Assembly (NCBI GenBank): GCA_017608025.1
Contig: JAFCGM010000004.1
Location: 90,744-154,743 of the forward strand
Reading direction: 5' to 3'
DNA length: 64,000 nt
Origin: Candidatus Pacearchaeota archaeon
Lineage (GTDB): Archaea; Nanobdellota; Nanobdellia; UBA10117; JABICX01
The notes beneath the pieces were generated by a model, which saw only the letters and a program-made list of their open reading frames with translations, searched no databases and was not told the DNA's origin. Below are positions 2,942-62,494 of the stretch, piece after piece (the stretch's first letter is position 1; every line of letters starts with the position of its first letter). The translations under genes and the position numbers were made by a program.

Positions 2942-3191
2942 ATATGTGTTATCGAGCAAGGCGAAAATAGCACTAGCCTGGGTCCCTTGGCTAAAAGGAC
3001 TGCTATACAAATAGATATAGAATAATAAAACAATAATAATGTTTTCCGCGAGCGCTTTTTCCAAAAGGGCTCTGTGGAGTCCCTTAGCTAGAAAGACTGA
3101 AATAATATGTGTTATCGAGCCGAAGGCGAAGATAGCACCTCTGTGTGTCTCTTCAGAAGAAGGACTGCCATAAAAATAGATATAAAATAAA
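2942..3191 (+). repeat. Intergenic composite repeat between two pilin genes. Two ~90-bp sub-repeats (2942-3040 and 3105-3191) bracket a 60-bp core (3041-3100).
   Basis: Sub-repeats atatgtgttatcgagc...ggcgaa(a/g)atagcac...aaggactgc(t/c)ata(c/a)aaatagatata(g/a)aataa. The core tttccgcgagcgctttttccaaaagggctctgtggagtcccttagctagaaagactg is ~90% identical to 53235-53292. GC content is above that of the flanking DNA. Confidence 0.65.
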
Positions 3192-3673: not shown

Positions 3674-5440
3674 ATGGATTTGAGTACTAAAAAAAGGCTC
3701 AGAAATGTTCTCTCAAAAGTCAAGAAAATTTACTCCTCAAAAAAAAGCTTAAAAAACAAAAAAGAGTTAATTGAAGAAAAAAAGCAGGAAATTCCAGAAA
3801 ACCAATACAACTTTGACAGGATTGCCCGCCCAGAAGATTCTTTTGACCTCGATGTTCTTGATGTTGAAAGTGAAGAAAAAAGATTCTCTCTTCCAGACGA
3901 GCTCAACAAACCAGAACTTGTTAAAAGCGAAATCAGAGCTCAAATAAGAAACATAAATGAAACTTATCCAGTGGTTTTCTCTTACCAAAACAACCAAAAA
4001 ATTCCTATTGCAAAGGCAAACATTTTCTATGACCCAAATATCAACAGTATAAGATATAATTTAATTGAGCCTCACTTGACTAAAGAAGAAGAAGAAAAAG
4101 TTTTCAAAACTCTTGAAAAACTAAAAGACAGACTTGATGTAAATCTTGCTGATTTGAAAAACAAAAAAGAAGTTTATGACTATCTTAATTCAAAAATAGA
4201 AGACATTTGGAAAGTTCTTGAAATAAAGGCAACTCTTGAACAGAAAATAAAAATGAAATATTATCTTTTCAGAAACACAATCGGACTTGACAAAATAAAT
4301 GCTTTAATGGAAGACCCAAATATAGAAGATATTTCATGTGATGGAGTTGGACTTCCTGTTTATATCTTTCACAGAAATCCAATGTATGGTGAAATACCCA
4401 CAAACATAATTTTCAATGAAAAGGATGCTCTTGACAGCTTTGTAATGAAGCTTGCTCAAAAATGTCACAGAACAATCTCTGTTGCTTCACCTTTAATGGA
4501 CGGCTCTCTTGAAGACGGCTCTCGTGTGCAAATAACATATGGAACAGATATTGCAAGACGGGGCAGCAATTTCACAATAAGAAAATTCTTCAAAATTCCA
4601 TTAACTCCTGTTGATTTGATAAACCTTAACACCATAGACCCAATGATGCTTGCATATCTCTGGCTTGCAATTGAGAACCAAAAATCAATACTCATTGCTG
4701 GAAGCACAGCAACAGGAAAAACAACATTGCTCAATTCCCTGTCATTGTTTATTGAACCAAATCAGAAAATAGTTTCAATTGAAGACACAGCAGAACTTCG
4801 CTTACCGCATATAAATTGGATGCCTCAAGTAGCAAGAACTGGCTTCGGACCAAAAAAATACGGGGAAATAAGTCTTTACGATCTTTTAAAAGCAGCTCTT
4901 CGTCAGCGTCCAGATTATCTAATTGTAGGAGAAGTAAGGGGCAAGGAAGCTTCTGTGCTTTTTCAGGCAATGGCAACAGGTCATCCTGGACTTTCAACAC
5001 TTCACGCCGACTCAATAAATGCTGTAATTGACCGTCTTACAACAAGACCTATAAACCTTCCTGCAGCAATTCTACAAAACCTTGACATAATTATTTTCAT
5101 AACAAGAGTGAAAAAAGACAACAAAATAACAAGACGAGTTGAAAAGATAATTGAAGTTGAAAATTATGACTTCAGTAAAAACAAGCTTAATGTAAATGAA
5201 GTTTTTGTATGGATTCCCGCTAAAGACAAGTTCATGTCAAAAGAAAGCAGCATCTTAAAGCAAATAGCAGAAATAAATGGATGGTCTGAACAGCAGGTAA
5301 ACAATGAAATTCTTAGAAGAATGCATATCCTAATATGGATGTTAAAGAAAAAAATATATCATTTTGAAGATGTTTCACGAGTAATAAAAATGTACTACAC
5401 AAATCCTGAAAAATTATACGGAATAATGAATAATGGATAG
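3674..5440 (+). CDS. Type IV pilus/archaellum secretion ATPase (FlaI/TadA/VirB11 family).
   Basis: Walker A GSTATGKTTLLNS, Walker B DYLIVGEVRG, 588 aa. Sits in an operon with pilins and platform proteins. Confidence 0.85.
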   Translation: MDLSTKKRLRNVLSKVKKIYSSKKSLKNKKELIEEKKQEIPENQYNFDRIARPEDSFDLDVLDVESEEKRFSLPDELNKPELVKSEIRAQIRNINETYPVVFSYQNNQKIPIAKANIFYDPNINSIRYNLIEPHLTKEEEEKVFKTLEKLKDRLDVNLADLKNKKEVYDYLNSKIEDIWKVLEIKATLEQKIKMKYYLFRNTIGLDKINALMEDPNIEDISCDGVGLPVYIFHRNPMYGEIPTNIIFNEKDALDSFVMKLAQKCHRTISVASPLMDGSLEDGSRVQITYGTDIARRGSNFTIRKFFKIPLTPVDLINLNTIDPMMLAYLWLAIENQKSILIAGSTATGKTTLLNSLSLFIEPNQKIVSIEDTAELRLPHINWMPQVARTGFGPKKYGEISLYDLLKAALRQRPDYLIVGEVRGKEASVLFQAMATGHPGLSTLHADSINAVIDRLTTRPINLPAAILQNLDIIIFITRVKKDNKITRRVEKIIEVENYDFSKNKLNVNEVFVWIPAKDKFMSKESSILKQIAEINGWSEQQVNNEILRRMHILIWMLKKKIYHFEDVSRVIKMYYTNPEKLYGIMNNG

Positions 5441-6305
5441 AGTTTACGATATTTCATTTTCAATTTTCGGTAAGCTTACGCACATACTTGATTCTGTTTT
5501 TCTCCCTTTGAAAAAAAAACTGGTTTCAGCAGGAATGGATGTTGACTACAAAAAATATGCTTCTTTCATAATAATGGTTTTTGTGTTTTTTCTAATTATT
5601 TCATTAATAATTTCATTGTTTTTTATTTTCTTTTTTCTTAAAAACATATCAGAATATGCTCCAATAATTATATTTGGAAACATAATTGTCTCTCTCGGCT
5701 TTGCTTTGTTCGCCTATTACTACCCTTTTCTTGTCTCTAGCGACAGAAAATCAAGAATAGACAACCAGCTCCCTTTTGCTTCTCTTTACTTATCAACAAT
5801 TTCAAAATCAGGTTTCCCTGCCCATGAAATGTTTCGAATGCTTGGAAATTTCAAAAACTACAAAATAATAGCAGAAGAAGCCAAAAAAATAAGCAAGGAC
5901 ATAACTCTTCTTGGATTTGATTTGCCTGAAGCAATCAATCGGGCAATAAAGCGTTCTCCGTCAAAAGAATGGAACGAGCTTTTGTCTGGGATAAGAAATA
6001 CAGTAACTGTTGGTGGAGAGCTTGGAAAATTTTTAGAGGAAAAATCAATTGGTTTTATCCAAGATTACAAGCGCAAATTAAAAAAATTCAGTGAAACTGT
6101 TTCAGTTTTTATGAATGTTTACATAACAGTAATTATTGTTGGCATTGTTTTTTTCATTGTAATTTCCTCTTTGATGAGCACAATCGGAGGAATGTCAGTG
6201 GTTTTAATCAAAACAATGCAAATGGCTGTTGTGTTTTTCGGACTGCCGATTGTAACAGTTGGATTCATACTATTAGTTAAAAGCATGTCACCATGGTCAA
6301 AATAA
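5433..6305 (+). CDS. Type IV pilus platform membrane protein (TadB/FlaJ N-terminal-half-like, T2SSF-type).
   Basis: Polytopic membrane protein overlapping the ATPase gene stop by 8 nt. Its position downstream of the ATPase is typical of FlaJ/TadB. Confidence 0.55.
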   Translation: MDRVYDISFSIFGKLTHILDSVFLPLKKKLVSAGMDVDYKKYASFIIMVFVFFLIISLIISLFFIFFFLKNISEYAPIIIFGNIIVSLGFALFAYYYPFLVSSDRKSRIDNQLPFASLYLSTISKSGFPAHEMFRMLGNFKNYKIIAEEAKKISKDITLLGFDLPEAINRAIKRSPSKEWNELLSGIRNTVTVGGELGKFLEEKSIGFIQDYKRKLKKFSETVSVFMNVYITVIIVGIVFFIVISSLMSTIGGMSVVLIKTMQMAVVFFGLPIVTVGFILLVKSMSPWSK

Positions 6306-7456: not shown

Positions 7457-8286
7457 TGAAAGCGCAGTCAATATATGAATATATAGTAAGTTTTGCAGTT
7501 TTCCTAGTAATGGCTCTTTTCTTGTTTCAATTAATGCTTTCTCTCGGGCCAGAAAGCATTGCTATTTTTGAGAAAAACACTGCTTGCTTGCAGGCAAACC
7601 AAATTTTAGAATACTCTACAGAAAGCCGAAATACTGAAAAAATTAATCTTAATTTTGGAATAAACAAAATAAATTACTCAAAATGGGAAAGCATGTCTGA
7701 AACAGATTATATTGCTTTCAAAAACTCAAATGAAATATTTTTTCCATTCAAGCTCCAATACACAATTAAAGAGCTTCCTCTAAACAAAACAGATACAGAC
7801 ACAGAATATCCAAACGGAACAGCAGCAAAAATAATACGTATGTCAGGAAACCAAATAAAAGTTTATGCAAATGGGTCGGCAAAAGCCACTCTTAAATTGA
7901 TAATTAACACTTTTAATAAGTCCTCATCTGTCAATATTATTGAAAGCGGCTGCAATTCCGGCACTCTTGAAGCAGAGGATTCTGCATCTGCTGAAACTGG
8001 AAAAATGTCAATAACAATGAACTTAAATAAAACAGATTATGACTGCCTGATTTTTTCAGTTGATTCAAATGAAGAATATCTTTACTTTGAAACTCTTGAA
8101 TTCAGTGATTTAAAAGGTGAAAAAATGTTCCCAGTGTTCCTTGAAAACACTTTCAGATTAAACGGCAACTACGGTTCGCAGAACATTGAAAAGAAAAAGC
8201 AATGCAGCAAAGGAAAATATGTTATAATCCAGTCAACTGAAAATGAAAAATTCATTGCTTATATAGAGGCGAAAAGTTGGAATTAA
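7456..8286 (+). CDS. Pilin-like / pilus minor subunit candidate with a class III signal peptide.
   Basis: N-terminus MKAQSIYEYIVSFAVFLVMALFLF. Translationally coupled: ATGA overlap at 7453-7456. Confidence 0.4.
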   Translation: MKAQSIYEYIVSFAVFLVMALFLFQLMLSLGPESIAIFEKNTACLQANQILEYSTESRNTEKINLNFGINKINYSKWESMSETDYIAFKNSNEIFFPFKLQYTIKELPLNKTDTDTEYPNGTAAKIIRMSGNQIKVYANGSAKATLKLIINTFNKSSSVNIIESGCNSGTLEAEDSASAETGKMSITMNLNKTDYDCLIFSVDSNEEYLYFETLEFSDLKGEKMFPVFLENTFRLNGNYGSQNIEKKKQCSKGKYVIIQSTENEKFIAYIEAKSWN

Positions 8287-8687
8287 TAAAATCAAAAAAA
8301 TCTCTTATTTACATAATGGAAACAATGCTTTGTGCAGTGGCTTTTGCGCTTATATTATTCTACTTTTCAAACTCGTTCTCAAGCCTTGAACAAGATACTT
8401 CTGAAATTGATACAGATAGCTTAATATATTCTTTAATTAATACTCGGGAAGTAAATATTTCATCAATTCCCAACATAAAAACAAGTTCAGAAAGAATAAT
8501 GGGTACAAGCTTCGAACTTAAAATGTTTTTTATAAATTCAAGCTGCTACATACTAAACTCCACAGATAGTCTTATTCAGAACTCAAATTGCTCATACTCA
8601 TTCAACACAAACAAAAATGTATTTTCCGGAGAAGCAAAAATAAGCACAGGAGAAACAATAAAAATATTATTTTGGAGGAAAATGTGA
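8277..8687 (+). CDS. Pilin-like protein with a class III signal peptide.
   Basis: N-terminus MELIKSKKSLIYIMETMLCAVAFALILF. Overlaps the upstream gene. Confidence 0.4.
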   Translation: MELIKSKKSLIYIMETMLCAVAFALILFYFSNSFSSLEQDTSEIDTDSLIYSLINTREVNISSIPNIKTSSERIMGTSFELKMFFINSSCYILNSTDSLIQNSNCSYSFNTNKNVFSGEAKISTGETIKILFWRKM

Positions 8688-8933
8688 TGAATAATAATAT
8701 ATTATCGAGGAAACTTATTTTTTGATGAAACTTTTTCAAAAGTTTCCGAAGATAGCGCCAGAAGGAACTTAGTTCCGCCTTGGGCTTTAGCCCTAGCCGA
8801 TTTTGCGGCTGAGTGTGTCCCTTGGCTAAAAGGACTTGAAGGAAAGTGTAATGAAAAATAAGTGACCTTTATAACTAAAATTTGGTCGCTGTCGCACAGT
8901 CCGGGCGAAACGGACAGAGGAAAATGTGATGAA
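8675..8933 (+). mobile_element. 224-bp family element (8693-8916) inserted exactly at an overlapping stop/start junction between two pilin genes. It is flanked by a 17-bp direct duplication (ggaggaaaatgtgatgaa at 8675-8692; gaggaaaatgtgatgaa at 8917-8933).
   Basis: Each copy keeps one gene end intact: copy 1 gives ...KM-TGA for the upstream gene; copy 2 supplies GAGG plus the ATG for the downstream gene. The insert has the tttgatgaaactttttcaaaagtttccg, gaagatagcgcc and gtgtcccttggctaaaaggact motifs plus GC-rich hairpins. Confidence 0.6.
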
Positions 8934-9552
8934 AACAAAATCAAAAAAAGCAGAGTTTTTCATGATAAGCATAGCAATAATACTTCTTTTCATGCTAACT
9001 CTTTTGGGATTTCCAAAAAGCGCTGTGCAATCAACACATTTCTCTGAAATAAACTATAATTCTGAAATAATGAAATTAATTGAAGCAAAAAACTCAGGAA
9101 ACTTCTGGAACTACACTTGGCAAAGCCAAATGAAAATTTCCTCAGCTTCAAATGAAACTGGCCGCCTTAAAATAGAAAATTTTGAAATATCCTCAGGATT
9201 TGCTTGCGAAGAAGACATTGTAGTTCTAAATTCAGCAAAAAGTGAAATAGATTCTGATACTGTTTCTGTTGGAATAGGACTCTGCGATATTGCTTTTGAA
9301 ATTGAACCTAACAAAAAATATTACATAATTTATAACGCATTTTATCCATACACAGCATCTTACAGTCGAGCAATGCCTTCTGGCGAATTTAACAAAACGT
9401 ATACAGAAATTGCAGACAAAACACATAACTTCTGCATATATTCTAAAGAAAGCATAGGCTCAAAAGCAGATTTTAACTGCACAATTCTTGAACAAAATAA
9501 AATTAGTATTTCATATGAATCTCCGAAAATAATGTATTCTGGAGTTATATAA
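8929..9552 (+). CDS. Pilin-like protein with a class III signal peptide.
   Basis: ATG at 8929 preceded by GAGG at 8917-8920 (9 nt upstream). N-terminus MKTKSKKAEFFMISIAIILLFML. The ORF-track start at 8926 is GTG. Confidence 0.45.
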   Translation: MKTKSKKAEFFMISIAIILLFMLTLLGFPKSAVQSTHFSEINYNSEIMKLIEAKNSGNFWNYTWQSQMKISSASNETGRLKIENFEISSGFACEEDIVVLNSAKSEIDSDTVSVGIGLCDIAFEIEPNKKYYIIYNAFYPYTASYSRAMPSGEFNKTYTEIADKTHNFCIYSKESIGSKADFNCTILEQNKISISYESPKIMYSGVI

Positions 9553-15283: not shown

Positions 15284-15358
15284 AGCGGGATGGGGCAGTC
15301 TGGAGTGCCCGTCGGGCTCATAACCCGAAGGTCGAAGGTTCAAATCCTTCTCCCGCTA
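15284..15358 (+). tRNA. tRNA-Met (anticodon CAT), initiator-type.
   Basis: Cloverleaf: acceptor AGCGGGA/TCCCGCT, anticodon stem TCGGG/CCCGA with three G:C pairs, loop CTCATAA, T-arm GAAGG-TTCAAAT-CCTTC. A1:U72 pair, archaeal initiator signature. Confidence 0.85.
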
Positions 15359-15543
15359 CTTACAAGGAGAAATTCAATAAACCTTTTGGGTTGGAAAACA
15401 TCCCTGAAGGTTTTCCGCCAGAAACGAACGTAGTTCGTGCCTATGAAATAGTGCTTTTTTAAAAGGGCTGTTTAGGGTTGGAAGACCTTTTTCAAAGGGA
15501 TTCCGTTTGAATCCTTCTCCCGCTACTTACAAGGAGAAATTCA
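15343..15543 (+). mobile_element. 133-bp repeat element (15377-15509) inserted at the 3' end of tRNAi-Met, flanked by a 34-bp direct duplication of the tRNA 3' end plus downstream sequence (15343-15376 and 15510-15543).
   Basis: Exact direct repeat AATCCTTCTCCCGCTACTTACAAGGAGAAATTCA twice. The internal sequence shares a >50-nt near-identical core (GGTTTTCCGCCAGAAACGAACGTAGTTCGTGCCTATGAAATAGTGCTTTTT) with 35579-35632. Confidence 0.6.
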
Positions 15544-15556
15544 TCAAAAAAATAAA

Positions 15557-16207
15557 ATGAAAACATGCGGTGTTGATGAAGCTGGAAGAGGACCTATTAT
15601 CGGACCAATGGTTCTTGCAGGTGTTTGCGCTTCAGAAAAAAAACTAGAAGAATTAAAAAAGCTTCATATAAAAGATTCTAAATTACTAACTCCAAAACGG
15701 CGGGAAGAACTCTTCAAAAAGATAATTGCAAAATATAAATATGTAATTGTAAAAATATCTCCGCAAGAAATTGATTCTAACAACGCAAATGGAACAAATT
15801 TAAATCGCCTTGAAGCAAAAACTATTGCTCGAATAATTATGGAAATGAAACCTAACAAAGTAATTGTAGATTCTCCAGAACCTGCTGATGAGCAAAAATT
15901 TGGCCGAACAATAAAAGAACTATGTAAAAACTGCAAACCTAAAATTTCAAGTGAACATAAAGCAGATACAAACCACATTATTGTTGGTGCAGCCTCAATT
16001 CTAGCAAAAGTAACTCGCGACAAGGAAATTGAAAAAATAAAAAAAGAAACAAAAATAGATATTGGCTCAGGATACCCTTCAGATGAAATAACAATAAAAG
16101 CATTAAAAGAGCATTTAAGTGAACTTGAACCTTATATAAGAAAATGCTGGGCAACATACAAAAGACTCAAAGGTGAAAAGTTCCAAGCTAATTTAGAAGA
16201 TTTCTAG
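15557..16207 (+). CDS. rnhB: Ribonuclease HII.
   Basis: N-terminal GVDEAGRGPIIGPMV catalytic motif, 216 aa. Confidence 0.9.
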   Translation: MKTCGVDEAGRGPIIGPMVLAGVCASEKKLEELKKLHIKDSKLLTPKRREELFKKIIAKYKYVIVKISPQEIDSNNANGTNLNRLEAKTIARIIMEMKPNKVIVDSPEPADEQKFGRTIKELCKNCKPKISSEHKADTNHIIVGAASILAKVTRDKEIEKIKKETKIDIGSGYPSDEITIKALKEHLSELEPYIRKCWATYKRLKGEKFQANLEDF

Positions 16208-16364
16208 TTTGGGGTTGGAAGACCTTTTCTAAAGGGATTCCTGTGAAAAGTTCCAAGCTAATTTAGGAGATTTCTAATTCAGTGCACAACAATGCAAATG
16301 TTTGTGCGCTAAGCGTGGGTCCCTTCGCTTTAAGGACTTCCAAGCTAATTTAGGAGATTTCTAA
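16177..16364 (+). repeat. Three direct copies of the rnhB 3' end (ttccaagctaatttag[a/g]agatttcta[g/a]) at 16180-16207, 16248-16274 and 16339-16364, separated by two short hairpin elements (16208-16247; 16278-16338).
   Basis: Copy 1 ends in TAG; copies 2 and 3 are identical to each other and end in TAA. Inserts carry the family motifs tttggggttggaagaccttttctaaagggattcc and gtgggtcccttcgctttaaggact. Confidence 0.6.
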
Positions 16365-16756
16365 ACTTTCTCAAGAAGTTTATTAAGATAAGAAACAGTA
16401 ACATCTCGCATAAAGCGGATTATATCTATATTCTCTGGGTTATGCAGACGTATATTTTTCTTATCAACAACATATGTAAAATTAAAAGTATTAGTAATAA
16501 AATCAAAGGTTAAAATATCATGACAAGCAGTAATGCGCGATTCTAACGTCTCATCAGATTTACTCAAAAATAGCTGATAGATTAAACCACTATACGTTGA
16601 GATTTTATTATTTTTATAATCTCTAACAACATCCATAAAAATCTCGGGATCTTTTCTAATTTCAGCAGGCAATCCAAGAACCTCGTCTGGAATTGGAATT
16701 GCTCCAAACCCACATTTAGTTACTTCATAATCCTCAGGATTAAGATATTCAACCAT
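16361..16756 (-). CDS. Hypothetical protein (131 aa).
   Basis: ORF only. Its stop codon overlaps the last rnhB-tail repeat copy. Confidence 0.35.
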   Translation of the reverse strand: MVEYLNPEDYEVTKCGFGAIPIPDEVLGLPAEIRKDPEIFMDVVRDYKNNKISTYSGLIYQLFLSKSDETLESRITACHDILTFDFITNTFNFTYVVDKKNIRLHNPENIDIIRFMRDVTVSYLNKLLEKV

Positions 16757-19085: not shown

Positions 19086-19988
19086 ATGGTTTTAGAGTCA
19101 ATAATCCCAGTAAACATTGCTGAGGAAAGGCCGATTAAAATTCTTCCTACAAGTTTCATATATGCCACAATAGCCTTGTTCATTGCTTATTGGCTTTTCC
19201 CAACAGAAGCTAGCATGACTCTAATTTTTTTCACAGTAATGGCTTGCCTTCCTCTAATGCTTGGCCTAATCGGACTTGAAAAACTAAAAGCAGAAGCAAT
19301 TTTAAAGGAAATAGTTTTTGACTATGTATCTCAACCAAATAAAAAAACATCAAATCCTTTCAAAACCCACAAAAAATTCTTCCTGTTTATGACATACTTA
19401 ACAATTGGACTTGTTCTTGCATTCACTCTTTGGTATATTGTTCTGCCAACAAATATGGTAAATCTTCTTTTCAATTCCCAAATAAACACAATAAACACAA
19501 TAAACAGCAATGTGTCCCATCTAACTGGAAATGCAATAAACATTATATCTTATTTCAGCATAATACTTACAAACAATCTCAAGGTTTTGATTTTCTGTCT
19601 TCTCTTTTCTTTCATTTATGGAGCAGGAGCAATTTTCATTCTTGTTTGGAACGCCAGTGTTGTATCTATTGCAATTGGAAATTCAATTAGAGGTCTTTTA
19701 AGCAGTTACGCAGCAGCAACTGGAGCAAACACTCTTAGTCAGTATTTCTCTGCCTTCTCTCTTGGACTCTTGCGATATATTGTACATGGAATTCCTGAAA
19801 TCGGAGCATATTTTATTGGTGGGCTTGCTGGAGGAATGATTTCAATTGCAATTATAAAACACGAATTTATGAGTCCTAAATTCAAAATAATTTTAATGGA
19901 CGCCCTCCTGCTAATGCTAATTTCTGTCGGGCTTCTAATCCTTGCCGCACTTATAGAAACCTTTATCAGTCCACTAATTCCTATTTAA
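19086..19988 (+). CDS. SpoIIM-like (DUF95 family) polytopic membrane protein, paralogue 1.
   Basis: Multi-TM protein. Conserved core NNLKVLIFCLLFSFIYGAGAIFILVWNASVV is shared with the downstream paralogue. Confidence 0.5.
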   Translation: MVLESIIPVNIAEERPIKILPTSFIYATIALFIAYWLFPTEASMTLIFFTVMACLPLMLGLIGLEKLKAEAILKEIVFDYVSQPNKKTSNPFKTHKKFFLFMTYLTIGLVLAFTLWYIVLPTNMVNLLFNSQINTINTINSNVSHLTGNAINIISYFSIILTNNLKVLIFCLLFSFIYGAGAIFILVWNASVVSIAIGNSIRGLLSSYAAATGANTLSQYFSAFSLGLLRYIVHGIPEIGAYFIGGLAGGMISIAIIKHEFMSPKFKIILMDALLLMLISVGLLILAALIETFISPLIPI

Positions 19989-20331: not shown

Positions 20332-21174
20332 ATGGTTTTAGAATCAATAATTCCAATAAAAACAGCAGAAAAGCAACCAATAGAAATGCTGCCTCTGGCT
20401 TTTTTGTATGCTTCAATTGGAATTTTCATTGGATACTGGATTTTTCCAAATTACGCAAGCCTCTCTTCTGTTTTCTTCACAGTCCTTGCTCTAGTGCCTT
20501 TAATGGTAAGTTTCATAAAATTCGAGGAAAAAGATGTTTTCAAAAAGCAGGAAAAATGGCATCACAAAAAAGCAATTCCTTTTTTTTGCTTTATGTTTCT
20601 CGGCCTTGTTTTTGCTTATTCATTTTGGTTCATAGTGTTCCCTTCTTCTCTAATTGGAAGTGTTTTTGGAATTCAGCTTAACACAATAAATCAAATAAAC
20701 AGCCAAGTAACTGGAAATTCTGCAGCAGTATCGTTTTTTTCAGCAATTTTATCAAACAATCTCAAGGTTTTGATTTTCTGTCTTCTCTTTTCTTTCATTT
20801 ACGGAGCAGGAGCAATTTTCATTCTTGTTTGGAATGCAAGCGTGGTTTCAGCAGCAATTGGAAATGGAGCTAGAGCATTAATTTCAAAACTTGTAGAAAC
20901 AACAAACCTACCAGGAATTGCAGTGTATTTCTCTGCCTTCTCTCTTGGGTTACTTAGGTATATGTCTCATGGAATTTTCGAAATGATTGGCTATTTCCTA
21001 GGCGGGCTTGCTGGTGGACTGATTTCTGTTGCAATTCTCCGTCACGAATTTATGGATAATAATTTCAAAAAAGTAATGCTCGATTCATTAACCTTAACTC
21101 TTTTTTCAATAGCAGTTTTGATTCTGGCTGCAGTAATAGAAGTTACTTTCTCACCCTTAATTCCATTTAAATAA
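20332..21174 (+). CDS. SpoIIM-like (DUF95) membrane protein, paralogue 2.
   Basis: ~45% identical to 19086-19988 overall, but shares an 83-bp tract (20755-20837) with only 2 mismatches to 19572-19654. Confidence 0.5.
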   Translation: MVLESIIPIKTAEKQPIEMLPLAFLYASIGIFIGYWIFPNYASLSSVFFTVLALVPLMVSFIKFEEKDVFKKQEKWHHKKAIPFFCFMFLGLVFAYSFWFIVFPSSLIGSVFGIQLNTINQINSQVTGNSAAVSFFSAILSNNLKVLIFCLLFSFIYGAGAIFILVWNASVVSAAIGNGARALISKLVETTNLPGIAVYFSAFSLGLLRYMSHGIFEMIGYFLGGLAGGLISVAILRHEFMDNNFKKVMLDSLTLTLFSIAVLILAAVIEVTFSPLIPFK

Positions 21175-35557: not shown

Positions 35558-35674
35558 GTGTGGAGGTTCTTTTCTAAAGGTTTTCCGCCAGAAACGAACG
35601 TAGTTCGTGCCTATGAAATAGTGCTTTTTCTAAAAGAGCTGTTTGAGGTGAAGACCTTTTCCAAAGGGATTCAA
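35558..35674 (+). repeat. Repeat-family element covering the 5' leader of the next gene.
   Basis: Contains the ~53-nt core shared with 15403-15455 and an end gaggtgaagaccttttccaaagggattcaa. The ORF-track start at 35558 lies inside it. Confidence 0.6.
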
Positions 35675-36409
35675 ATGAAGAAAAAGATTGCAATTGCCCT
35701 AAGTGCTGAAATCCTTGATGAAGTGGATTTTATTTCAAAAAAAGAAAGTCTATCAAGAAGCCAGGAAATTGAAAAACTCATCTTAGAAGGACTGAAAAAA
35801 ACTGAAGTGAAAACTGCGGTATTGCTAATACACAAAAATAAAAAAGAAGTTTTATTCAAAAACAGCAACGAACTGCTAAAGAAGCAATATGAATTTCTTA
35901 AAAAAAACCGAATTCAAAATATAATATTCGTTTCTGAATTCAAAGAAAGTGAAAAGCGAAAAATAGAGCAAATTTTTCAAGAAATTAACTTAAAAATAAT
36001 ATCTGACAAATCAAATGGCACTGCTCAAGCTCTGAAAAAAGCAAATAAACACATCTTTTCAGATTTCATACTAATTAACGCAGACACGTACAATGAATTT
36101 GACTTAAAAAAAATGATTTCATTCCACAAAGAAACAAAAACAACAGCAACTCTTGGCCTTATAAACAGTGATTCTCCAGAAAAATATGGCTCAGTAATTC
36201 TAGATGGAACAAAAATAATAAAATTCAGTGAAAAAGCAAAACCTCTTTCAAATATAATCAGCGCAGGAATTTATATATTAAAGCCCAAAATCTTTGCAAG
36301 CATCAAAAATAAAAAATCTCTTGAAAAAGAAATCTTTCCAGAACTCGCTGAATCGCGAGAAATTCGCGGATTTTTTACTTTCGGCCAATACCAACATTTC
36401 GGAAACTAA
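35675..36409 (+). CDS. Sugar-phosphate nucleotidyltransferase (HddC/RmlA-fold) with an atypical N-terminus: an RHH-like segment replaces the canonical GGxGTRL loop.
   Basis: GTAQAL, LINADTY, YGSVILD and ISAGIYIL motifs of the NTP_transferase family. Start at ATG 35675 (MKKKIAIALSAEILDEVD...). Confidence 0.5.
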   Translation: MKKKIAIALSAEILDEVDFISKKESLSRSQEIEKLILEGLKKTEVKTAVLLIHKNKKEVLFKNSNELLKKQYEFLKKNRIQNIIFVSEFKESEKRKIEQIFQEINLKIISDKSNGTAQALKKANKHIFSDFILINADTYNEFDLKKMISFHKETKTTATLGLINSDSPEKYGSVILDGTKIIKFSEKAKPLSNIISAGIYILKPKIFASIKNKKSLEKEIFPELAESREIRGFFTFGQYQHFGN

Positions 36410-39023: not shown

Positions 39024-40099
39024 TGGCAAAAAAAACAAAACCTGAAAAAAAAGAGGAAAAAATTTCAGAAGAAATTGCAGAAAACAATCCAGAAGAAAAA
39101 GCAAAACAAAAAAAAGAATCTGATGAAATAAAAGAAAAAGAAAAAGTAGCTACAATGAAAATCGAGGACTTACCTGGAGTTGGTCCGGCAACTGTTGAAA
39201 AGCTAAAGGAAGCAGGTTATTTAGACTTAATGAGTCTAGCAGCAGCCCCTTCTCGTGAACTTGCAGACATAGCAGGAATGACTGAATCTGGAGCAGGAAA
39301 AGTTATTGTTGCTGCAAGAAAAGCTCTTAAAATTGATTTCATGACAGGAGATGAATTATCTTCAAAAAGAAAAAGTATTGAAAGAATATCAACTGGAAGC
39401 CAGGAATTTAACAAGCTTATTGGTGGGGGAATTGAAACACAAGGTCTGTTTGAATGCTTTGGTGAATATGGTTCTGGAAAATCCCAACTAGCAATGCAGT
39501 TGGCAGTTATGGCTCAGCTTCCAAAAGAAAACGGAGGTCTCAACAGTGATGTAATTTACATTGACACAGAAAACACATTCCGGCCAGAAAGAATAAAGCA
39601 AATAGCAGAAGCGCAAGGCCTTGACTCTAAAAAAGTATTGAAAAGAATAATGGTAGCTCGGGCATTCACATCAGATCATCAAATGCTGCTTGCAGAAAAA
39701 ATTGACAGTATGATTCGTGAAAAGAATATACACGTAAGGCTTGTAATAGTAGATTCCTTAACTTCATTATTCAGAACAGAATATTCTGGAAGAGGAACTC
39801 TCGCCACAAGACAGCAAAAACTTAATCGACATCTTCACACTCTGCAGAGAATCGCAGACATACACAACATAGCAGTTTACGTAACAAACCAAGTAATGGC
39901 TCGGCCAGACATTTTCTTTGGAAACCCAACAGCAGCAATAGGAGGTCATGTTCTAGGGCATGCCTGCCAGTTCAGAGTTTACCTTAGAAAAAGCAAAGGA
40001 GACAAAAGAATCGCCCGCTTAATAGACTCTCCATATTTACCAGAAGGCGAAGCAATCTTCAGAGTAACTGAAAAAGGAATTGAAGATATTAAGTCCTAA
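39023..40099 (+). CDS. radA: DNA repair and recombination protein RadA, with a Lys/Glu-rich N-terminal extension or an alternative start at 39155.
   Basis: HhH ([13 protein letters not shown]), Walker [10 protein letters not shown], RecA core. 358 aa. Confidence 0.9.
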
Positions 40100-40440
40100 C
40101 TTGTGTTAAGCAATCACTTTTTTGATGAAACTTTTTCTAAAATTTCAATTTTTTGCAAGCTTTCTTTCTAAGAAAGCTTTGGGAATGAAAACACTTTTTA
40201 AAGGGTTTTCTGTAACTGAAAAAGGAATTGAAGATGTTAAGTCTTAATTACAGGTATCGTATTTTGTTTACCTGTTGAAAGTGCCAGCTGATTTTGCAGC
40301 TGGAAGATGTTAAGTCTTAATTACAGGTATCGTATTTTGTTTACCTGTTGAAAGTGCCAGCTGATTTTGCAGCTGGAAGATGCTAAATCCTAACTTATAT
40401 TAAGCAATCCATTTTTTTAATGAAACTTTTTCTAAAAGAG
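40066..40440 (+). repeat. Nested/tandem array downstream of radA: four direct copies of the radA 3' end (40066-40099, 40214-40247, 40303-40320, 40376-40393). They are separated by a ~95-bp family element and by two copies of a 55-bp two-hairpin module (40248-40302 and 40321-40375; period 73 bp).
   Basis: Copies ...gaagat(a/g)ttaagtc(c/t)taa. Module ttaCAGGTAtcgtattttgttTACCTGttgaaagtgcCAGCTGattttgCAGCTG with two perfect stems. Confidence 0.65.
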
Positions 40441-40473: not shown

Positions 40474-41349
40474 ATGTTCATAATTTACATCTTAACTGCA
40501 ATAGCTGTTATATATACTTTAGTCGGAGCTTACACAGACATACGCTGGCGTATTTTTCCTGACTATTTAAGCTATTCTTTAATTCTTTTCGGCCTCTTTG
40601 GAAATCTTTTCTTGTCAATAGAAACAGGAAATAGTGCTTTTTTCGCAAATTCAGTGCTTTTCCTTATTCTTGCCTTTTCAATTGGATATTTTCTGTCTTA
40701 CTTTGGTTTGTGGGGAATGGGTGATACAAAAATACTGGCTGGTTTTGCTGCGGTTTTTTCAATCTGGCCGTCTTTCCAGTCATTTCCATTATTTCAAGCC
40801 CCATGGCCTTTTGTAGTAACAATTTGGCTTAATGCTGTATTGCTTGCGCCTTTCCTTGCTGTTGCTTTCATGACTTTCCATATAATAAAAAACAGAAAAA
40901 AGCTTCTGATATTAATAAGAAAAAAATTCCAAAAATACAGAAAAGTAACATATATATTTGCAGCTTCTCTCGTGCTTTTTTCAATAATTTATTTTACGAC
41001 TCCTGTGTATGGTTTGTATTTTTTGGTTTTATGGGCGTTTGCAATTCTTTTCACATACTTTTCAATCCTTGCAAAGATAATGGATTCAAATATCTATGAA
41101 CTGAAAAAACCGTCTGAATTAATTGAAGGAGACTATCCTATCGAACTGAAATTAAAAATACCTGGAAAGCTAAAAAAATGGGGTCTTGAAAAAAATCAAA
41201 TAAATTACATAAAAAGTCACACAAAAAAGCAACTTAAAATAAAAAGAGGATTTCCAATGATTGTAGCATATGCATTTTCCTTGTTGATTTCCTTATTTTC
41301 AGGAGACCTTACCTACAAAATAATTTATTCTTTAATTCATATAATTTAA
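40474..41349 (+). CDS. Type IV prepilin/preflagellin peptidase (A24 family, PibD/FlaK-like).
   Basis: Catalytic Asp motifs YTDIRWRIFPD and WGMGDTKIL in a polytopic membrane protein. Confidence 0.65.
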   Translation: MFIIYILTAIAVIYTLVGAYTDIRWRIFPDYLSYSLILFGLFGNLFLSIETGNSAFFANSVLFLILAFSIGYFLSYFGLWGMGDTKILAGFAAVFSIWPSFQSFPLFQAPWPFVVTIWLNAVLLAPFLAVAFMTFHIIKNRKKLLILIRKKFQKYRKVTYIFAASLVLFSIIYFTTPVYGLYFLVLWAFAILFTYFSILAKIMDSNIYELKKPSELIEGDYPIELKLKIPGKLKKWGLEKNQINYIKSHTKKQLKIKRGFPMIVAYAFSLLISLFSGDLTYKIIYSLIHII

Positions 41350-44286: not shown

Positions 44287-44543
44287 GATGCTCACCCTTA
44301 CATTCCATTTTAATTTACCTTGATTTTCCGTGAACACTTTTCTTAAAAGGGTTCTTGTTTTTTTGATGAAACTTTTTCTAAAAGTTTCCGTGAACACTTT
44401 TCTTAAAAGGGTTCTTGTTTTTTTGATGAAACTTTTTCTAAAAGTTTCCGTGAACACTTTTGCAGGCATCGTATTTTATTCGCCTGCTCAGAGTGCCAGC
44501 TGATCTCTCAGCTGTGGTGCTCACCCTTACATTCCATTTTAAT
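44287..44543 (+). repeat. Repeat locus upstream of tRNA-Cys. 25-bp direct repeats (44290-44314 and 44519-44543) flank two and a fraction tandem 60-bp units (44325-44384, 44385-44444) plus one 52-bp two-hairpin module (44462-44513).
   Basis: Unit tttccgtgaacacttttcttaaaagggttcttgtttttttgatgaaactttttctaaaag. Module GCAGGCatcgtattttattcGCCTGCtcagagtgcCAGCTGatctctCAGCTG. Confidence 0.65.
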
Positions 44544-52835: not shown

Positions 52836-52993
52836 TTATCAACAAGAACAATAACTCGTTTTCCAATTAATTTTTTCGGAAGTGTGATTTTTCCAGATGA
52901 AGCATTGTTTTTAATAACATATCTTGTTAAAATTTGGTTAAAGTTTATTGGCTTCAACTTAACACTTCCCCGAACTTTCGCATTAATTCCCAT
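52823..52993 (-). CDS. 56-aa AbrB/MazE/SpoVT-like swapped-hairpin DNA-binding protein. Not in the supplied ORF track because it is under 60 aa.
   Basis: Translation MGINAKVRGSVKLKPINFNQILTRYVIKNNASSGKITLPKKLIGKRVIVLVDKEQE. The GKITLPKKL..GKRV motif resembles the AbrB swapped hairpin. ATG at 52991-52993 (rc), TAA at 52823-52825 (rc). Confidence 0.35.
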   Translation of the reverse strand: MGINAKVRGSVKLKPINFNQILTRYVIKNNASSGKITLPKKLIGKRVIVLVDKEQE

Positions 52994-53359
52994 TAAATTA
53001 ATTCCTCATCTTTCTAATTTGTTTCTTTGGGCAACTTGCACTTTCTTTTCTAAAGAAAGGGCAGAGCATTAATTCCCATTAAATTAATTCCTCGTCTCTC
53101 TAATTTGTTTCTTTGGGCAACTTGCACTTTCTTTTCTAAAGAAAGGGCAGAGCATAACTTTTATAGTCTAATTAAAGACTACAATATTTAAAAACCTTAT
53201 GTGCATCCTTGCTCTACACGATCATATTCGTCATTTTCCGCAAGCGCTTTTTCCAAAAGGGCTCCATGAGTCCCTTGGCTAGAAGGACTATAACCAGAAT
53301 TAAACCGTTGTGTGAAGCTCTGCTTTACACGACCAGCCTGTGTCCCTTGGCTAGAAGGA
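52979..53359 (+). repeat. Two tandem 87-bp units (52979-53065 and 53066-53152), each beginning with a copy of the AbrB-like gene start. These are followed by a ~120-bp GC-richer family element (53235-53359) carrying two gtcccttggctagaaggacta hairpin motifs.
   Basis: Tandem units are near-identical. The 53235-53292 segment is ~90% identical to 3041-3100. Confidence 0.6.
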
Positions 53360-55581: not shown

Positions 55582-55770
55582 CTAAAATATAACGTATGCT
55601 TCTTAAATTATATTTCTTTTAGTGCAGGTTTTCTTTGTAAAAGAAAAAGTGCAAAGGTCTCTAAAATATAACGTATGCTTCTTAAATTATATTTTTTTCT
55701 TTGTAAAAGAAAAAGTGCAAAGGTCTCTAAAATATAACGTATGCTTCTTAAATTATATTTCTTTTAATAC
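55582..55770 (+). repeat. Three tandem direct repeats (79, 66 and a partial ~45 bp) upstream of the TraB-family gene.
   Basis: Unit ctaaaatataacgtatgcttcttaaattatattt(c)tttt...ctttgtaaaagaaaaagtgcaaaggtct. Units begin at 55582, 55661 and 55727. Confidence 0.7.
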
Positions 55771-61051: not shown

Positions 61052-62443
61052 TCAGCTGAAATCGAGAATAGAAACTTTACCTGTTTTCAAATTAAGTATT
61101 GGAACTTTTCCTGGTTCGGGGTGATGCCCGACTTTCTCTTGAAACTCTGTTTTTGCCTGCCAGCAGGAACTGCATATAGTATGAATTCCCTTGTATTTTC
61201 CAACAGCAACTTTGTGTATGTGCCCTGTTGCAAGAACATGAGGAATATTTTTTATAATCAATGGGTCTTCTTTCATCGGAAAGCAAAGAGTGGATCCATA
61301 GCAAGGAGCTAAATGTCTTCTTTTAAGCAAAAATTTCATTATTTCGTCTGCCTTATCATATCCTCCAGCAAGTCTTAAAAATTCAACTTTGTCAACAAAA
61401 TAATCAAAGCTATATCCATGATAAATCAAAACTTTTAGTCCGCAGTATTTAGGATTTTTATGAAGCTTTAAAAGGCATGGATTTGGAACAAGAAAAACAT
61501 TGCTAAATTCTGTTAAGATTTTTGCATATTTTTCTGAAAAAACCTGCGGCTCTTCAATAGTAAGTCCATCATGATTTCCTGGACAGAGAATTATTTTTTT
61601 GTCTTTTGGAATTTTTGAAATATATTCTGAAAATTTTTCAAATTGCTTTTCCAAATCTTTTATAATTAACTCATCTTCCTGACCAGGATATACTCCAACG
61701 CCATCAACAAGATCACCAATAAAAAAAATATACTTCACTTTTTCAGCAATTTTTCTCTGGTTTTCATCACCAATTTCCCCTGAAAGCCACTTAATAAATG
61801 TATTAAATTTTTTCTCAAGAAACATATTTGAACCAATATGAACATCACTTGAAAAAACAATATAAACCTCTTCGTCTGTTTTTGGAAAGGGCGTCATAGG
61901 AATATCTGGCCAAATAATATCTTTTATAAAAAAAATGTCTTTTGAAAATCTACCTTTTAAAGCAATTACTTCATCAAATGAAACATATTTTATTTTCTCC
62001 AAAACTTCTGAATTGTTTTTTGAAGCAATTGCTGTGTATTTGCCAGACAAATCCTCAATTTCTAAAATATAAGAACCAGTATTAAGTAAGTTAATGTCAA
62101 AAACCATTGCAATAATAGTAACTTCTTCTTGCATTTGCTTTGCGCGTGAAATAGATACTGCATCCTGAACTTCAGGCCGCTGCATTAAAATTCTTTTTAT
62201 CGTGTTATATCTTGCTCTGAAACTCTCAACAAAATCAGAGGATTTTATTTTCTTTGGTATAAAACTTTTTTTATTTAAAACTTCAACATTTGGCTCAAAA
62301 CTCTTATTAAGAAATTCTTTTTTATTTTTAAAAACATTAACATCATAATCACACTGCGTTAATATTTGTATATTTTGCTTATTAGGTAAAATATTTTCTT
62401 TCATTAAAATTGAAATTGCTTTCAAATCTTGTTCTGTTGCCAT
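61052..62443 (-). CDS. DNA polymerase D small (exonuclease) subunit DP1.
   Basis: Calcineurin-like phosphoesterase motifs (GDLVDG, GNHD), N-terminal OB region, 463 aa. Confidence 0.8.
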   Translation of the reverse strand: MATEQDLKAISILMKENILPNKQNIQILTQCDYDVNVFKNKKEFLNKSFEPNVEVLNKKSFIPKKIKSSDFVESFRARYNTIKRILMQRPEVQDAVSISRAKQMQEEVTIIAMVFDINLLNTGSYILEIEDLSGKYTAIASKNNSEVLEKIKYVSFDEVIALKGRFSKDIFFIKDIIWPDIPMTPFPKTDEEVYIVFSSDVHIGSNMFLEKKFNTFIKWLSGEIGDENQRKIAEKVKYIFFIGDLVDGVGVYPGQEDELIIKDLEKQFEKFSEYISKIPKDKKIILCPGNHDGLTIEEPQVFSEKYAKILTEFSNVFLVPNPCLLKLHKNPKYCGLKVLIYHGYSFDYFVDKVEFLRLAGGYDKADEIMKFLLKRRHLAPCYGSTLCFPMKEDPLIIKNIPHVLATGHIHKVAVGKYKGIHTICSSCWQAKTEFQEKVGHHPEPGKVPILNLKTGKVSILDFS

Positions 62444-62494
62444 TTTTGGAAAAGCCTGTTATTTTTCTGAAATAAAGGAATTTGCTTGAAGTTT

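What the first reader, a model, noticed from the sequence alone, without database searches (positions are those of the whole stretch)
8675..8933. Element insertion precisely at an overlapping stop/start codon junction, duplicating the RBS+ATG/TGA so both pilin genes stay intact
The upstream pilin gene ends ...gga gga aaa atg tga. The downstream pilin begins gaggaaaatgtgATGaaa, with GAGG nine nt upstream of the ATG. Both are copies of one 17-bp segment separated by a 224-bp element. The ancestral state was evidently an overlapping ATGTGA / GTGATG stop-start junction. The insertion regenerated a complete copy on each side. This is the cleanest example in the window and it constrains the mechanism: a ~17-bp staggered duplication with no loss of target bases.
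Basis: seen in the sequence. Interest (0 to 1): 0.65.

Follow-up and report, generated by a model that had tools for sequence, protein, structure and literature searches.

The report
Hairpin-mosaic insert splitting overlapping pilin-like genes
A 225-base patchwork of small hairpin-forming repeats has landed exactly on the shared stop/start signal of two neighbouring pilus-type genes in a tiny (DPANN-type) archaeon, copying 17 bases of the target so that both genes survive; it belongs to a family of such inserts that I could not match to anything described and whose way of spreading is unknown.

Summary
GAGGAAAATGTGATGAA occurs exactly twice in the window (8675-8691 and 8917-8933), 225 bp apart, not 224. 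Two related genomes carry the same operon with an uninterrupted, overlapping stop/start junction (TAATG in L066, ATGA in L069). Both window proteins are colinear with their orthologues to the last and first residue. So this is a lineage-specific insertion with a 17-bp target duplication.

The insert is not one clean element. It is a mosaic of at least six short hairpin modules that recur at about a dozen other intergenic sites in the window, all on the + strand. It also holds a third, decayed copy of the junction (8838-8857), so it was built in several steps or arrived as an array.

The same layout (duplicated target, hairpin insert, duplicated target; repeats about 14-100 nt) recurs at gene and tRNA 3' ends, here and in other AT-rich archaeal contigs. 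I found no terminal inverted repeats, no transposase in the window and no Rfam match.

The mechanism is inferred. I favour replication- or repair-coupled copy-in over classical transposition. One module is identical in more than 120 metagenome contigs, including archaeal tRNA introns and bacterial contigs.

The parts
8277..8687 (+). Upstream pilin-like gene (136 aa from TTG; the true start may be the ATG at about 8316). Ends ...AAA ATG TGA.
   Evidence: ORF list. C-terminus colinear with the L066 128-aa and L069 122-aa orthologues (...ETIKILFWRKM / ...ETLKLIFWRQV / ...EIIKINYWSRI). No Pfam hit.
8675..8691 (+). Junction copy A. It carries the last codons and the TGA stop (8685-8687) of the upstream gene, plus a now useless ATG.
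   Evidence: Exact 17-mer. Its upstream flank TTTTGG matches the L066 empty site.
8692..8837 (+). Insert segment 1, a mosaic of hairpin modules:
- TTATCGAG...CGAAGATAGCGCC module (8702-8709 and 8747-8759), interrupted by module F1.
- F1: TTTTGATGAAACTTTTTCAAAAGTTTC (8720-8746), preceded by a T6 run at 8718.
- GCGCCAGAA-hairpin-GCC (8755-8779).
- GGGCTTTAGCCC (8782-8793).
- AGCCGATTTTGCGGCT (8795-8810).
- GTCCCTTGGCTAAAAGGAC (8817-8835).
   Evidence: Coordinates. Each module has homologues elsewhere in the window, for example the 19/19 identical match at 2982 and 31/32 identity at 44359 and 44419. Hairpin folds. GC of the whole insert is 0.41, against 0.32 for the window.
8838..8857 (+). Copy B', a decayed third copy of the stop/start junction (GAAGGAAAGTGTAATGAAAA). 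It is non-functional and keeps the L066-like state AAGTGTAATGAA.
   Evidence: 26-nt family 8672-8697 / 8836-8861 / 8914-8939. (8824-8857 vs 8904-8935, 76%). Comparison with L066.
8858..8916 (+). Insert segment 2. It holds an A/T-rich stretch with a TATA-box-like TTTATAA (8868-8874, 61 nt before the ATG) and a terminal hairpin GTCCGGGCGAAACGGAC (8899-8915) that abuts copy C.
   Evidence: Coordinates. Hairpin z-score -2.8. The promoter reading is inference only, by analogy with TTTATAA(A) about 30 nt upstream of tRNA-Met in the window, L067 and L069.
8917..8933 (+). Junction copy C. It carries GAGG (ribosome-binding site), a spacer, and the GTG/ATG start with the first codons of the downstream gene.
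   Evidence: Exact 17-mer. The downstream flank continues into sequence conserved with L066 (AAAAAAAGCAGARTTYTTCATGATAAGC).
8929..9552 (+). Downstream pilin-like gene (207 aa from the ATG).
   Evidence: 100% identical to P0001 and 66% to P0002. N-terminus colinear with orthologues (MKTKSKKAEFFMISI / MNLSNRKKAEFFMISI / MKKGEFFIISI).

Best explanation
What it is (shown). In the lineage of this Woesearchaeota-like archaeon, 225 bp of foreign-to-the-site DNA was inserted into the 1-nt-overlap stop/start junction (..ATG TGA TG..) of two adjacent pilin-like genes of a type IV pilus-type operon. With it, 17 bp of the target were duplicated (ribosome-binding site, stop and start). Copy A still terminates gene 1 and copy C still initiates gene 2. 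The insert is not a unit element. It is a mosaic of short hairpin modules from a dispersed family that fills most long intergenic regions of this genome in one orientation.

History (inferred). A decayed internal junction copy shows that the insert was assembled in at least two duplication-plus-insertion steps, or was imported as an already built array. The outer copies may have been kept identical by the repeat homogenisation seen at the RNase HII locus.

Mechanism (inferred, about 0.4 on its own). The modules are copied in by a replication- or repair-coupled process rather than by a classical transposase that recognises terminal inverted repeats. In this picture the nascent strand picks up hairpin-containing sequence, either by template switching or by ligation of a hairpin flap that resists removal. 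Synthesis then resumes upstream on the original template, which duplicates a variable stretch of target. This would explain four things: the variable repeat length, the hairpin that always abuts the downstream repeat, the single strand orientation, and the many perfect 60-86-nt tandem duplications.

Likely consequence (inferred). T6 and T5 runs in segment 1 and a TATA-like box in segment 2 could uncouple transcription of the downstream gene from the operon.
For: Insertion and duplication:
- Exact 17-mers.
- Empty overlapping junctions in L066 and L069.
- Proteins colinear with orthologues.

Mosaic family:
- Module homologues at about 12 loci in the window.
- Multi-module composites shared between loci: 15404-15464 / 35574-35634 at 95%, and 3042-3072 / 53234-53264 at 97%.
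- Stems differ while flanks are conserved, e.g. GCCAGAA-GGAAC/GTTCC, -ACGAAC/GTTCGT, -GCAAAC/ATTTGC-GCC.

Strand polarity:
- Motif counts + versus -: 8:1, 6:0 and 13:1, despite mixed gene orientation.
- GC skew is negative all along the window, and -0.13 after balancing + and - ORFs.
- PolD small subunit and Cdc6/Orc1 genes lie at the right edge of the window.

Same architecture elsewhere:
- RNase HII 3' end in three species, and tRNA-Met 3' end in the window and in L068.
- L135 (38 nt), L167/L182 (22-32 nt) and L126 (40 nt).
- In the cases inspected the insert ends in a hairpin within 0-10 nt of the downstream repeat (within 0-3 nt in most), directly abutting it in L126.

Other points:
- Perfect tandem duplications of 60-86 nt.
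- No transposase, integrase or Cas1 among about 60 ORFs.
- No terminal inverted repeats at the insert ends.
- No Rfam family.
Against: - No microhomology was seen at the insert/target boundaries beyond the repeats themselves. I checked this by eye on the sequences. A simple template-switch model predicts some.
- The strand rule rests on one 64-kb stretch on one side of a presumed origin. In other AT-rich contigs the orientation of module F1 shows no link to balanced GC skew (0.003), and F1 is mostly antisense to neighbouring ORFs (27:8).
- Only about 10% of F1 sites in other contigs show a recognisable flanking repeat, against about 3% of control positions.
- An enzyme encoded outside the 64-kb window cannot be excluded.
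- The relic copy B' carries the ancestral-like state while A and C are identical. Explaining this needs an extra assumption: gene conversion, or import of a ready-made array.
- The terminator and promoter readings are untested.
Confidence: 0.55

Rival explanations
1. A non-autonomous transposon is mobilised in trans by a DDE transposase that makes long, variable staggered cuts, as reported for IS1634 and IS1549. The 17 bp is a true fill-in target site duplication.
For: - Direct repeats flank the insert with no loss of target.
- There is precedent for direct repeats of 8-514 bp with IS1549 and IS1634, a family that is relatively common in Euryarchaeota (PMC2266710).
- Repeat lengths here are likewise variable.
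Against: - There are no terminal inverted repeats at the insert ends. The only inverted pair is an internal, imperfect 21-nt one, 17/21 complementary, which by my estimate has p of about 0.07.
- The inserts are mosaics with different end modules at different sites.
- No transposase is present in 64 kb.
- A uniform strand orientation is not expected for DDE elements.
Confidence: 0.15
2. The hairpins are REP- or IS200/IS605-like single-strand DNA elements moved by an HUH/Y1 (RAYT/TnpA-type) enzyme at the replication fork. The flanking duplications arise separately, by slippage around the hairpins.
For: - These are short imperfect hairpins with a conserved 5' flank. TTGAT lies directly 5' of the F1 stem, and from my own knowledge TTGAT is the ISDra2 target.
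- Strand polarity in the window.
- Mosaic arrays like BIMEs.
- The F1 sequence is identical in bacteria and archaea, as would happen if an enzyme and its cognate hairpin transfer together.
Against: - By established knowledge of the family, IS200/IS605 and REP elements make no target duplication. Here the duplication is exactly at the insert borders.
- No Y1 transposase is in the window.
- No protein family other than chemoreceptor paralogues recurs next to F1 in 120 contigs.
- No common target tetra- or pentanucleotide is seen at the left borders (by eye).
Confidence: 0.15
3. The insert is primarily a selected regulatory cassette (internal terminator or attenuator plus a new promoter, or a structured RNA) and not a selfish or mutational by-product. 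The repeats are maintained because they are functional.
For: - T6 and T5 runs (8718, 8732) and TTTATAA at 8868, 61 nt before the ATG.
- Hairpin stems show compensatory differences between copies.
- The repeat copies at the RNase HII 3' end co-evolve within species: 4 of 4 species-specific substitutions are shared.
- The - strand of the region folds better than shuffles, z = -3.7.
Against: - The insert is absent from two orthologous operons, so it is not needed for operon function.
- No Rfam match.
- + strand fold z is only -1.9.
- The modules lie in one genomic orientation even next to - strand genes, which does not fit a role in cis on transcripts.
- The internal junction relic is decaying.
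Confidence: 0.1
4. The insert is ancestral and was precisely deleted, by recombination between the 17-bp repeats, in the lineages of L066 and L069.
For: Direct repeats favour precise deletion. The arrays clearly expand and contract, as shown by tandem copies and by different inserts at the same RNase HII site.
Against: - It needs two independent precise losses. By RNase HII identity, L069 (72%) branches outside the L066/L068 genome (76%) and the window.
- The modules have copies elsewhere in the genome, so they were imported at some point in any case.
Confidence: 0.04

Closest known systems
MITEs (miniature inverted-repeat transposable elements) of bacteria and archaea
   Same: Small, non-coding, multi-copy and intergenic; able to fold; flanked by a direct duplication of the target; an empty site exists in relatives.
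   Different: No terminal inverted repeats. The duplication is long (17 bp here) and very variable between sites (about 14-100 nt). The inserts are mosaics without constant ends, and all have one strand orientation. No cognate transposase was seen.
REP / BIME mosaics with RAYT, and hairpin elements derived from IS200/IS605
   Same: Short imperfect hairpins with conserved flanks, combined into mosaics in intergenic DNA. Strand polarity suggests a single-strand, replication-linked process.
   Different: By established knowledge those elements do not duplicate the target. BIMEs alternate REP orientation, whereas here all modules point one way. No Y1/HUH gene was found.
IS1634 / IS1549 (long, variable direct repeats on insertion)
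   Same: This is the only prokaryotic precedent I found for target duplications that are long and variable (8-514 bp; PMC2266710).
   Different: Those are 1.5-2 kb autonomous insertion sequences with inverted ends and a DDE transposase. Here there are 35-225-bp hairpin mosaics and no transposase.
Mitochondrial GC clusters, double-hairpin and repetitive hairpin-forming elements of fungi and sponges
   Same: Relatively GC-rich hairpin modules invade an AT-rich compact genome, sit at gene borders, merge and shuffle into arrays, carry putative target duplications, and have no known enzyme (PMC4478555; PMC2800124 listed).
   Different: Those duplications are 2-3 nt (AG/ACT), and the hosts are organelles. 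Here the duplications are 14-100 nt and the host is an archaeal chromosome.
Cas1-type integration (CRISPR repeat duplication, casposon target duplications)
   Same: It has a repeat-insert-repeat layout, arrays grow at one site, and the duplications are long.
   Different: The resemblance is from my own knowledge only. The 'repeat' here is whatever local sequence was hit, the 'spacers' are recurrent hairpin modules, and no cas1 gene is in the window.

Membership tests
MITE (DDE-transposase-dependent) | Terminal inverted repeats at the element ends | tested here: not met
   The repeat finder on 8660-8945 found no inverted repeat at the insert termini. The only one is an internal, imperfect 21-nt pair at 8702-8722 / 8854-8874.
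MITE (DDE-transposase-dependent) | Short target site duplication of fixed length | tested here: not met
   17 bp here. Elsewhere 22-40 nt, 72 nt and about 100 nt.
MITE (DDE-transposase-dependent) | Related autonomous insertion sequence in the genome | tested here: inconclusive
   None among the window's ORFs. The rest of the genome was not available.
REP/BIME-RAYT or IS200/IS605-derived hairpin element | Imperfect hairpin with a conserved 5' guide or target motif | tested here: inconclusive
   F1 has the conserved flank TTTTGAT 5' of a 9-bp stem, identical in more than 120 contigs. The other modules have no shared motif.
REP/BIME-RAYT or IS200/IS605-derived hairpin element | Insertion without target duplication | tested here: not met
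   An exact 17-bp duplication lies at the borders, and there are analogous duplications at other sites.
REP/BIME-RAYT or IS200/IS605-derived hairpin element | Cognate Y1/HUH transposase gene, usually flanked by the hairpins | tested here: inconclusive
   Not in the window. No recurrent candidate lies next to F1 in 120 contigs. Whole genomes were not searched.
IS1634/IS1549-type insertion | Long, variable direct repeats generated on insertion | tested here: met
   Variable repeats of 14-100 nt. Compare 8-514 bp in PMC2266710.
IS1634/IS1549-type insertion | 1.5-2 kb element encoding a DDE transposase, or a deletion derivative keeping its ends | tested here: not met
   The insert is 225 bp with no ORF of note and no inverted ends.
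Known structured RNA family (Rfam), including C/D-box sRNA and ribozymes | Match to a covariance model at gathering score | tested here: not met
   Only two tRNAs were found in the window. Nothing below E = 0.27 in 8500-9100, and all hits are far below gathering scores. Nothing for F1-bearing loci.
Integrative element at a tRNA or gene 3' end (att duplication) | Integrase gene, or an element-sized insert between the att repeats | tested here: not met
   The inserts are 35-225 bp of hairpins only, and there is no integrase in the window.
   The operon has a T2SSE ATPase and two T2SSF genes, and a Peptidase_A24 prepilin peptidase lies at 40474-41349. The two proteins have KKAEFF-type hydrophobic N-termini but no Pfam hit.

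The most novel reading that the evidence does not exclude
The insert is one instance of an undescribed, enzyme-independent (or unknown-enzyme) way of spreading DNA in DPANN archaea. Strand-polar hairpin modules are copied in during replication or repair, and each event duplicates 15-100 nt of whatever target was hit, so gene ends, tRNA ends and overlapping stop/start junctions survive. The most conserved module, TTTTGATGAAACTTTTTC(N)AAAAGTTTC, is shared verbatim with tRNA introns of other archaea and with intergenic composites of termite-gut bacteria. That would point to a hairpin that moves across domains, or to a hairpin-recognising factor common to both.
Probability: 0.25. Interest if true: 0.8.

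Novelty: new variant of a known kind. Interest (0 to 1): 0.55.

Why it matters
If the reading holds, compact archaeal genomes with almost no intergenic space can still absorb repeat invasions. The insertion process itself regenerates the gene end, the ribosome-binding site and the start codon that it hits. This is a clean natural example at a 1-nt-overlap junction.

The variable, long duplications, the single strand orientation and the lack of inverted ends or a transposase point away from textbook transposition. They point towards a replication-linked mechanism that could be tested with a closed genome.

The verbatim conservation of one hairpin in archaeal tRNA introns and in bacterial contigs is unexplained, and it may mark a widely shared factor or a mobile hairpin.

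Tried and rejected
- Rfam, at gathering scores and at relaxed E-values, on the window, the region and the F1-bearing loci. Only tRNAs were found.
- C/D-box or K-turn reading of UGAUGA in F1. There is no D box (CUGA) or tandem G.A geometry in the copies, and Rfam snoRNA hits are at E > 3. Dropped.
- Intron-like removal from the mRNA through a bulge-helix-bulge (BHB) splice motif. The flanking direct repeats cannot pair, so I found no support, although F1 does sit inside genuine tRNA introns elsewhere.
- Terminal inverted repeats. None at the ends.
- Transposase, integrase, Cas1 or HUH genes. None in about 60 window ORFs.
- A recurrent enzyme next to F1 in 120 contigs. Only chemoreceptor paralogues recur.
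- A general link between F1 orientation and replication skew in other contigs. Not seen. The orientation relative to genes is opposite to that in the window.
- Microhomology at the insert borders. None obvious, by eye.
- Synteny in 65 Hel308-anchored genome loci. No pilus operon lies next to Hel308, except in a Thermoplasmata contig.
- Fetching the source contig by exact protein look-up. This failed, and no accessions were returned.
- Apparent insertion in L066 at 1350. It is a scaffold gap of Ns.
- Plasmid BLAST with the bacterial F1 composite, and a viral scan for F1. One irrelevant hit and 5 contigs respectively.
- Literature search for the F1 sequence. Nothing relevant.
- A generic hairpin-loop detector for strand counts in other loci. 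Too unspecific to use.

Full report
**Observation.** The 17-mer GAGGAAAATGTGATGAA occurs exactly twice in the 64-kb window, at 8675-8691 and 8917-8933. There is no further match at up to two mismatches; 0.04 are expected and 0 of 100 shuffles reach two. The upstream ORF (8277-8687) ends ...TGG AGG AAA ATG TGA. The downstream ORF starts at ATG 8929 (GTG 8926 is in frame), with GAGG at 8917-8920. The intervening DNA is 225 bp (8692-8916) with GC 0.41, against 0.32 for the window.

**Context.** The window is AT-rich, compact and archaeal. It encodes Hel308, RadA, Cdc6/Orc1, the PolD small subunit and an STT3-type oligosaccharyltransferase. The Hel308 protein is 54-63% identical to proteins of Woesearchaeota/Nanoarchaeota MAGs. 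The two genes lie at the end of a tightly overlapping operon, behind a T2SSE ATPase (3674-5440) and two T2SSF membrane proteins. A prepilin peptidase gene is at 40474-41349. The two small proteins have hydrophobic N-termini but no Pfam hit, so 'pilin-like' is an inference.

**Test against relatives.** The downstream protein has only one non-identical relative among 5.8 billion sequences (66% identity). Its contig, L066 (GCA_964558255.1), carries the same operon. There the two genes share one base...TTTTGGAGGCAAGTGTAATGAATCTC. A second syntenic contig, L069 (GCA_964435825.1), runs from T2SSF through Hel308, SecDF and tRNA-Met to RNase HII, and has a 4-nt overlap...TTATTGGAGCAGAATATGAAAAAAGG. 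Neither has a spacer. The window proteins align with both orthologues to the last residue of the upstream protein and the first residue of the downstream protein. It shows a lineage-specific insertion that duplicated the stop/start junction without loss of target bases. Two independent precise deletions are the only alternative, and that is less parsimonious.

**Anatomy of the insert.** It is not a unit element. It consists of short hairpin modules, each with homologues elsewhere in the window:
- a TTATCGAG...CGAAGATAGC module (compare 2949 and 3110), interrupted by the hairpin I call F1;
- F1, TTTTGATGAAACTTTTTCAAAAGTTTC (8720-8746; 31/32 identical to 44359 and 44419);
- GCGCCAGAA-hairpin-GCC (8755-8779; compare 15416, 35586 and 52412, which have different but still paired stems);
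- two small GC hairpins;
- GTCCCTTGGCTAAAAGGAC (8817-8835; 19/19 identical to 2982).

The folds are short, with 4-9-bp stems, and some are better than shuffles. There are no terminal inverted repeats, no Rfam match and no meaningful ORF.

**A third copy of the junction.** GAAGGAAAGTGTAATGAAAA lies inside the insert at 8838-8857. The 20-mer used to find it has three matches in the window at three or fewer mismatches, against 0.05 expected. Like copy C, it is directly preceded by a GTCC...GGAC hairpin. It carries AAGTGTAATGAA, the state found in L066, whereas the outer copies share AAATGTGATGAA. Simple successive insertions, each duplicating the junction, would make the relic identical to one outer copy. 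They would not make the two outer copies identical to each other. So one of two things happened: the 225 bp arrived as a ready-made array, or the outer copies were homogenised afterwards.

**The wider pattern.** The same 'repeat-insert-repeat' layout is common:
- *In the window.* The 3' end of tRNA-Met plus its trailer (about 39 nt, 15340/15506); the last about 35 nt of RNase HII, three copies (16173/16243/16330); 72 nt at 19955/20195; about 60 nt at 40084/40378; 26 nt at 44288/44517; about 100 nt at 2942/3104.
- *In relatives and other AT-rich contigs.* The tRNA-Met end, three copies, in L068; the RNase HII end in L067 and L069; a 38-nt gene end in L135; a tRNA CCA end in L167/L182; 40 nt in L126.

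In the cases I inspected, the insert ends in a hairpin that abuts or lies within about 10 nt of the downstream repeat. At the RNase HII site, the window and L067 share the same inserted hairpin and L069 has a different one. Within each species, 4 of 4 species-specific substitutions in the first 24 nt are shared by both repeat copies. The copies therefore evolve in concert. That weakens any dating of the pilin-junction event from the identity of its two 17-mers. Perfect tandem duplications of 60-86 nt (40230, 44325, 52980, 55629) show that such arrays are currently expanding.

**Strand polarity.** Asymmetric module motifs occur almost only on the + strand (8:1, 6:0 and 13:1), although neighbouring genes point both ways. 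The GC skew is negative throughout the window, and it is -0.13 after balancing + and - ORFs. The PolD small subunit and Cdc6/Orc1 genes sit at the right edge, so the origin probably lies just to the right. On that reading the + strand is the lagging nascent strand, which suggests a replication-linked process. The evidence comes from one replichore only. In other AT-rich contigs the orientation of F1 shows no relation to balanced skew, and F1 is mostly antisense to nearby ORFs.

**Mechanism.** I found no transposase, integrase, Cas1 or HUH gene among about 60 window ORFs. Given the variable repeat length, the terminal hairpin, the polarity and the tandem duplications, I favour a replication- or repair-coupled copy-in. 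In that model the nascent strand acquires hairpin sequence by template switching or by retention and ligation of a hairpin flap, and then resumes upstream on the original template. This is inference. I saw no microhomology at the borders, and an enzyme encoded elsewhere in the genome cannot be excluded.

The rivals are:
- an IS1634/IS1549-like enzyme (direct repeats of 8-514 bp are documented; PMC2266710), but there are no inverted ends;
- a REP/IS200-like single-strand system, which would fit TTGAT next to the F1 stem and the polarity, but that family makes no target duplication;
- a selected terminator-plus-promoter cassette. T6 and T5 runs lie at 8718 and 8732, and TTTATAA lies at 8868, 61 nt before the ATG. 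However, the insert is dispensable in two relatives.

**An unexpected by-product.** By my estimate fewer than about 2 are expected by chance. The hits fall into two groups:
- About half are AT-rich contigs. In these F1 lies among similar hairpins, or inside intron-bearing tRNA genes directly after the anticodon loop (L095, L111, L120, L189, L106).
- The rest are 38-52% GC contigs from termite-gut-type samples that encode bacterial proteins (ABC/FtsX transporter, histidine kinase, many chemoreceptors). There F1 sits in a fixed composite between a terminator-like hairpin and a second, covarying GC hairpin.

No Rfam family, no literature match and few viral contigs were found. I cannot explain this conservation.

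**Verdict.** The 'element' is a multi-step hairpin mosaic from a family that I could not match to any described element. Its insertion chemistry is unknown, and it does not fit classical MITE, REP or IS definitions.

Noticed in passing
They include bacterial contigs from termite-gut-type samples, where it sits in a fixed composite between a terminator-like hairpin and a covarying GC hairpin. No Rfam family or paper matches it.
   Followed up: partly
L095 1176-1295, L111 2880-2997, L120 1907-2085, L189 4444-4559, L106 6581-6753: The same hairpin lies inside introns of archaeal tRNA genes. It is usually antisense and directly after the anticodon loop; in one case it is in sense at the 3' end of the intron.
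   Followed up: partly
window 16173-16366; L067 1510-1640; L069 9770-9910: The last about 35 nt of the RNase HII gene are repeated downstream of a hairpin insert in three species. The window and L067 share the same insert and L069 has another. Species-specific substitutions are shared by both repeat copies within each species (4 of 4), which indicates concerted evolution.
   Followed up: partly
window 15340-15545; L068 1850-2150; L167 (- strand view) 5890-6025: The 3' end of tRNA genes plus the trailer is duplicated two or three times around hairpin inserts, in the window (tRNA-Met), in a relative where the locus is inverted, and in an unrelated AT-rich contig (including the encoded CCA).
   Followed up: partly
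window 1-64000; 61052-64000: All hairpin modules are on the + strand. GC skew is negative throughout. PolD small subunit and Cdc6/Orc1 genes lie at the right edge, so a replication origin probably lies just beyond the window.
   Followed up: partly
window 40230-40375, 44325-44444, 52980-53151, 55629-55760: There are perfect or near-perfect tandem duplications with units of 73, 60, 86 and 66 nt, most of them containing hairpin modules. These look like recent array expansions.
   Followed up: no
window 2942-3191: Between two other pilin-like genes (weak DUF7289 and DUF7266 hits), a unit of about 100 nt that runs from just after the stop codon to the next ATG is duplicated around a two-hairpin insert. 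That insert is also found at 53234-53291.
   Followed up: no
window 15404-15510 and 35574-35680: A multi-hairpin composite of about 100 nt is shared by two loci 20 kb apart (61 nt at 95%, then 35 nt at 71%). Several modules therefore move together.
   Followed up: no
L067 340-800: In the closest relative, tRNA-Met carries an intron of about 370 nt at the canonical position. The intron has a short ORF, possibly a decayed homing endonuclease. The window's tRNA-Met has no intron.
   Followed up: no
L066 5710-8556: The Hel308 orthologue of the relative is 948 aa and has intein and LAGLIDADG domains. The window's copy is 719 aa and has no intein.
   Followed up: no
window 19086-19988 and 20332-21174: Two SpoIIM-like paralogues lie in tandem (DNA repeats with 1183-bp spacing, 74-89% identity). 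A hairpin array lies between them, and a 72-nt copy of the first gene's 3' end with its trailing hairpin is also present.
   Followed up: no
window 8868-8874: TTTATAA lies inside the insert 61 nt before the downstream ATG. It resembles the TTTATAA(A) found about 30 nt upstream of tRNA-Met in the window, L067 and L069. It may be a new promoter for the downstream gene.
   Followed up: no
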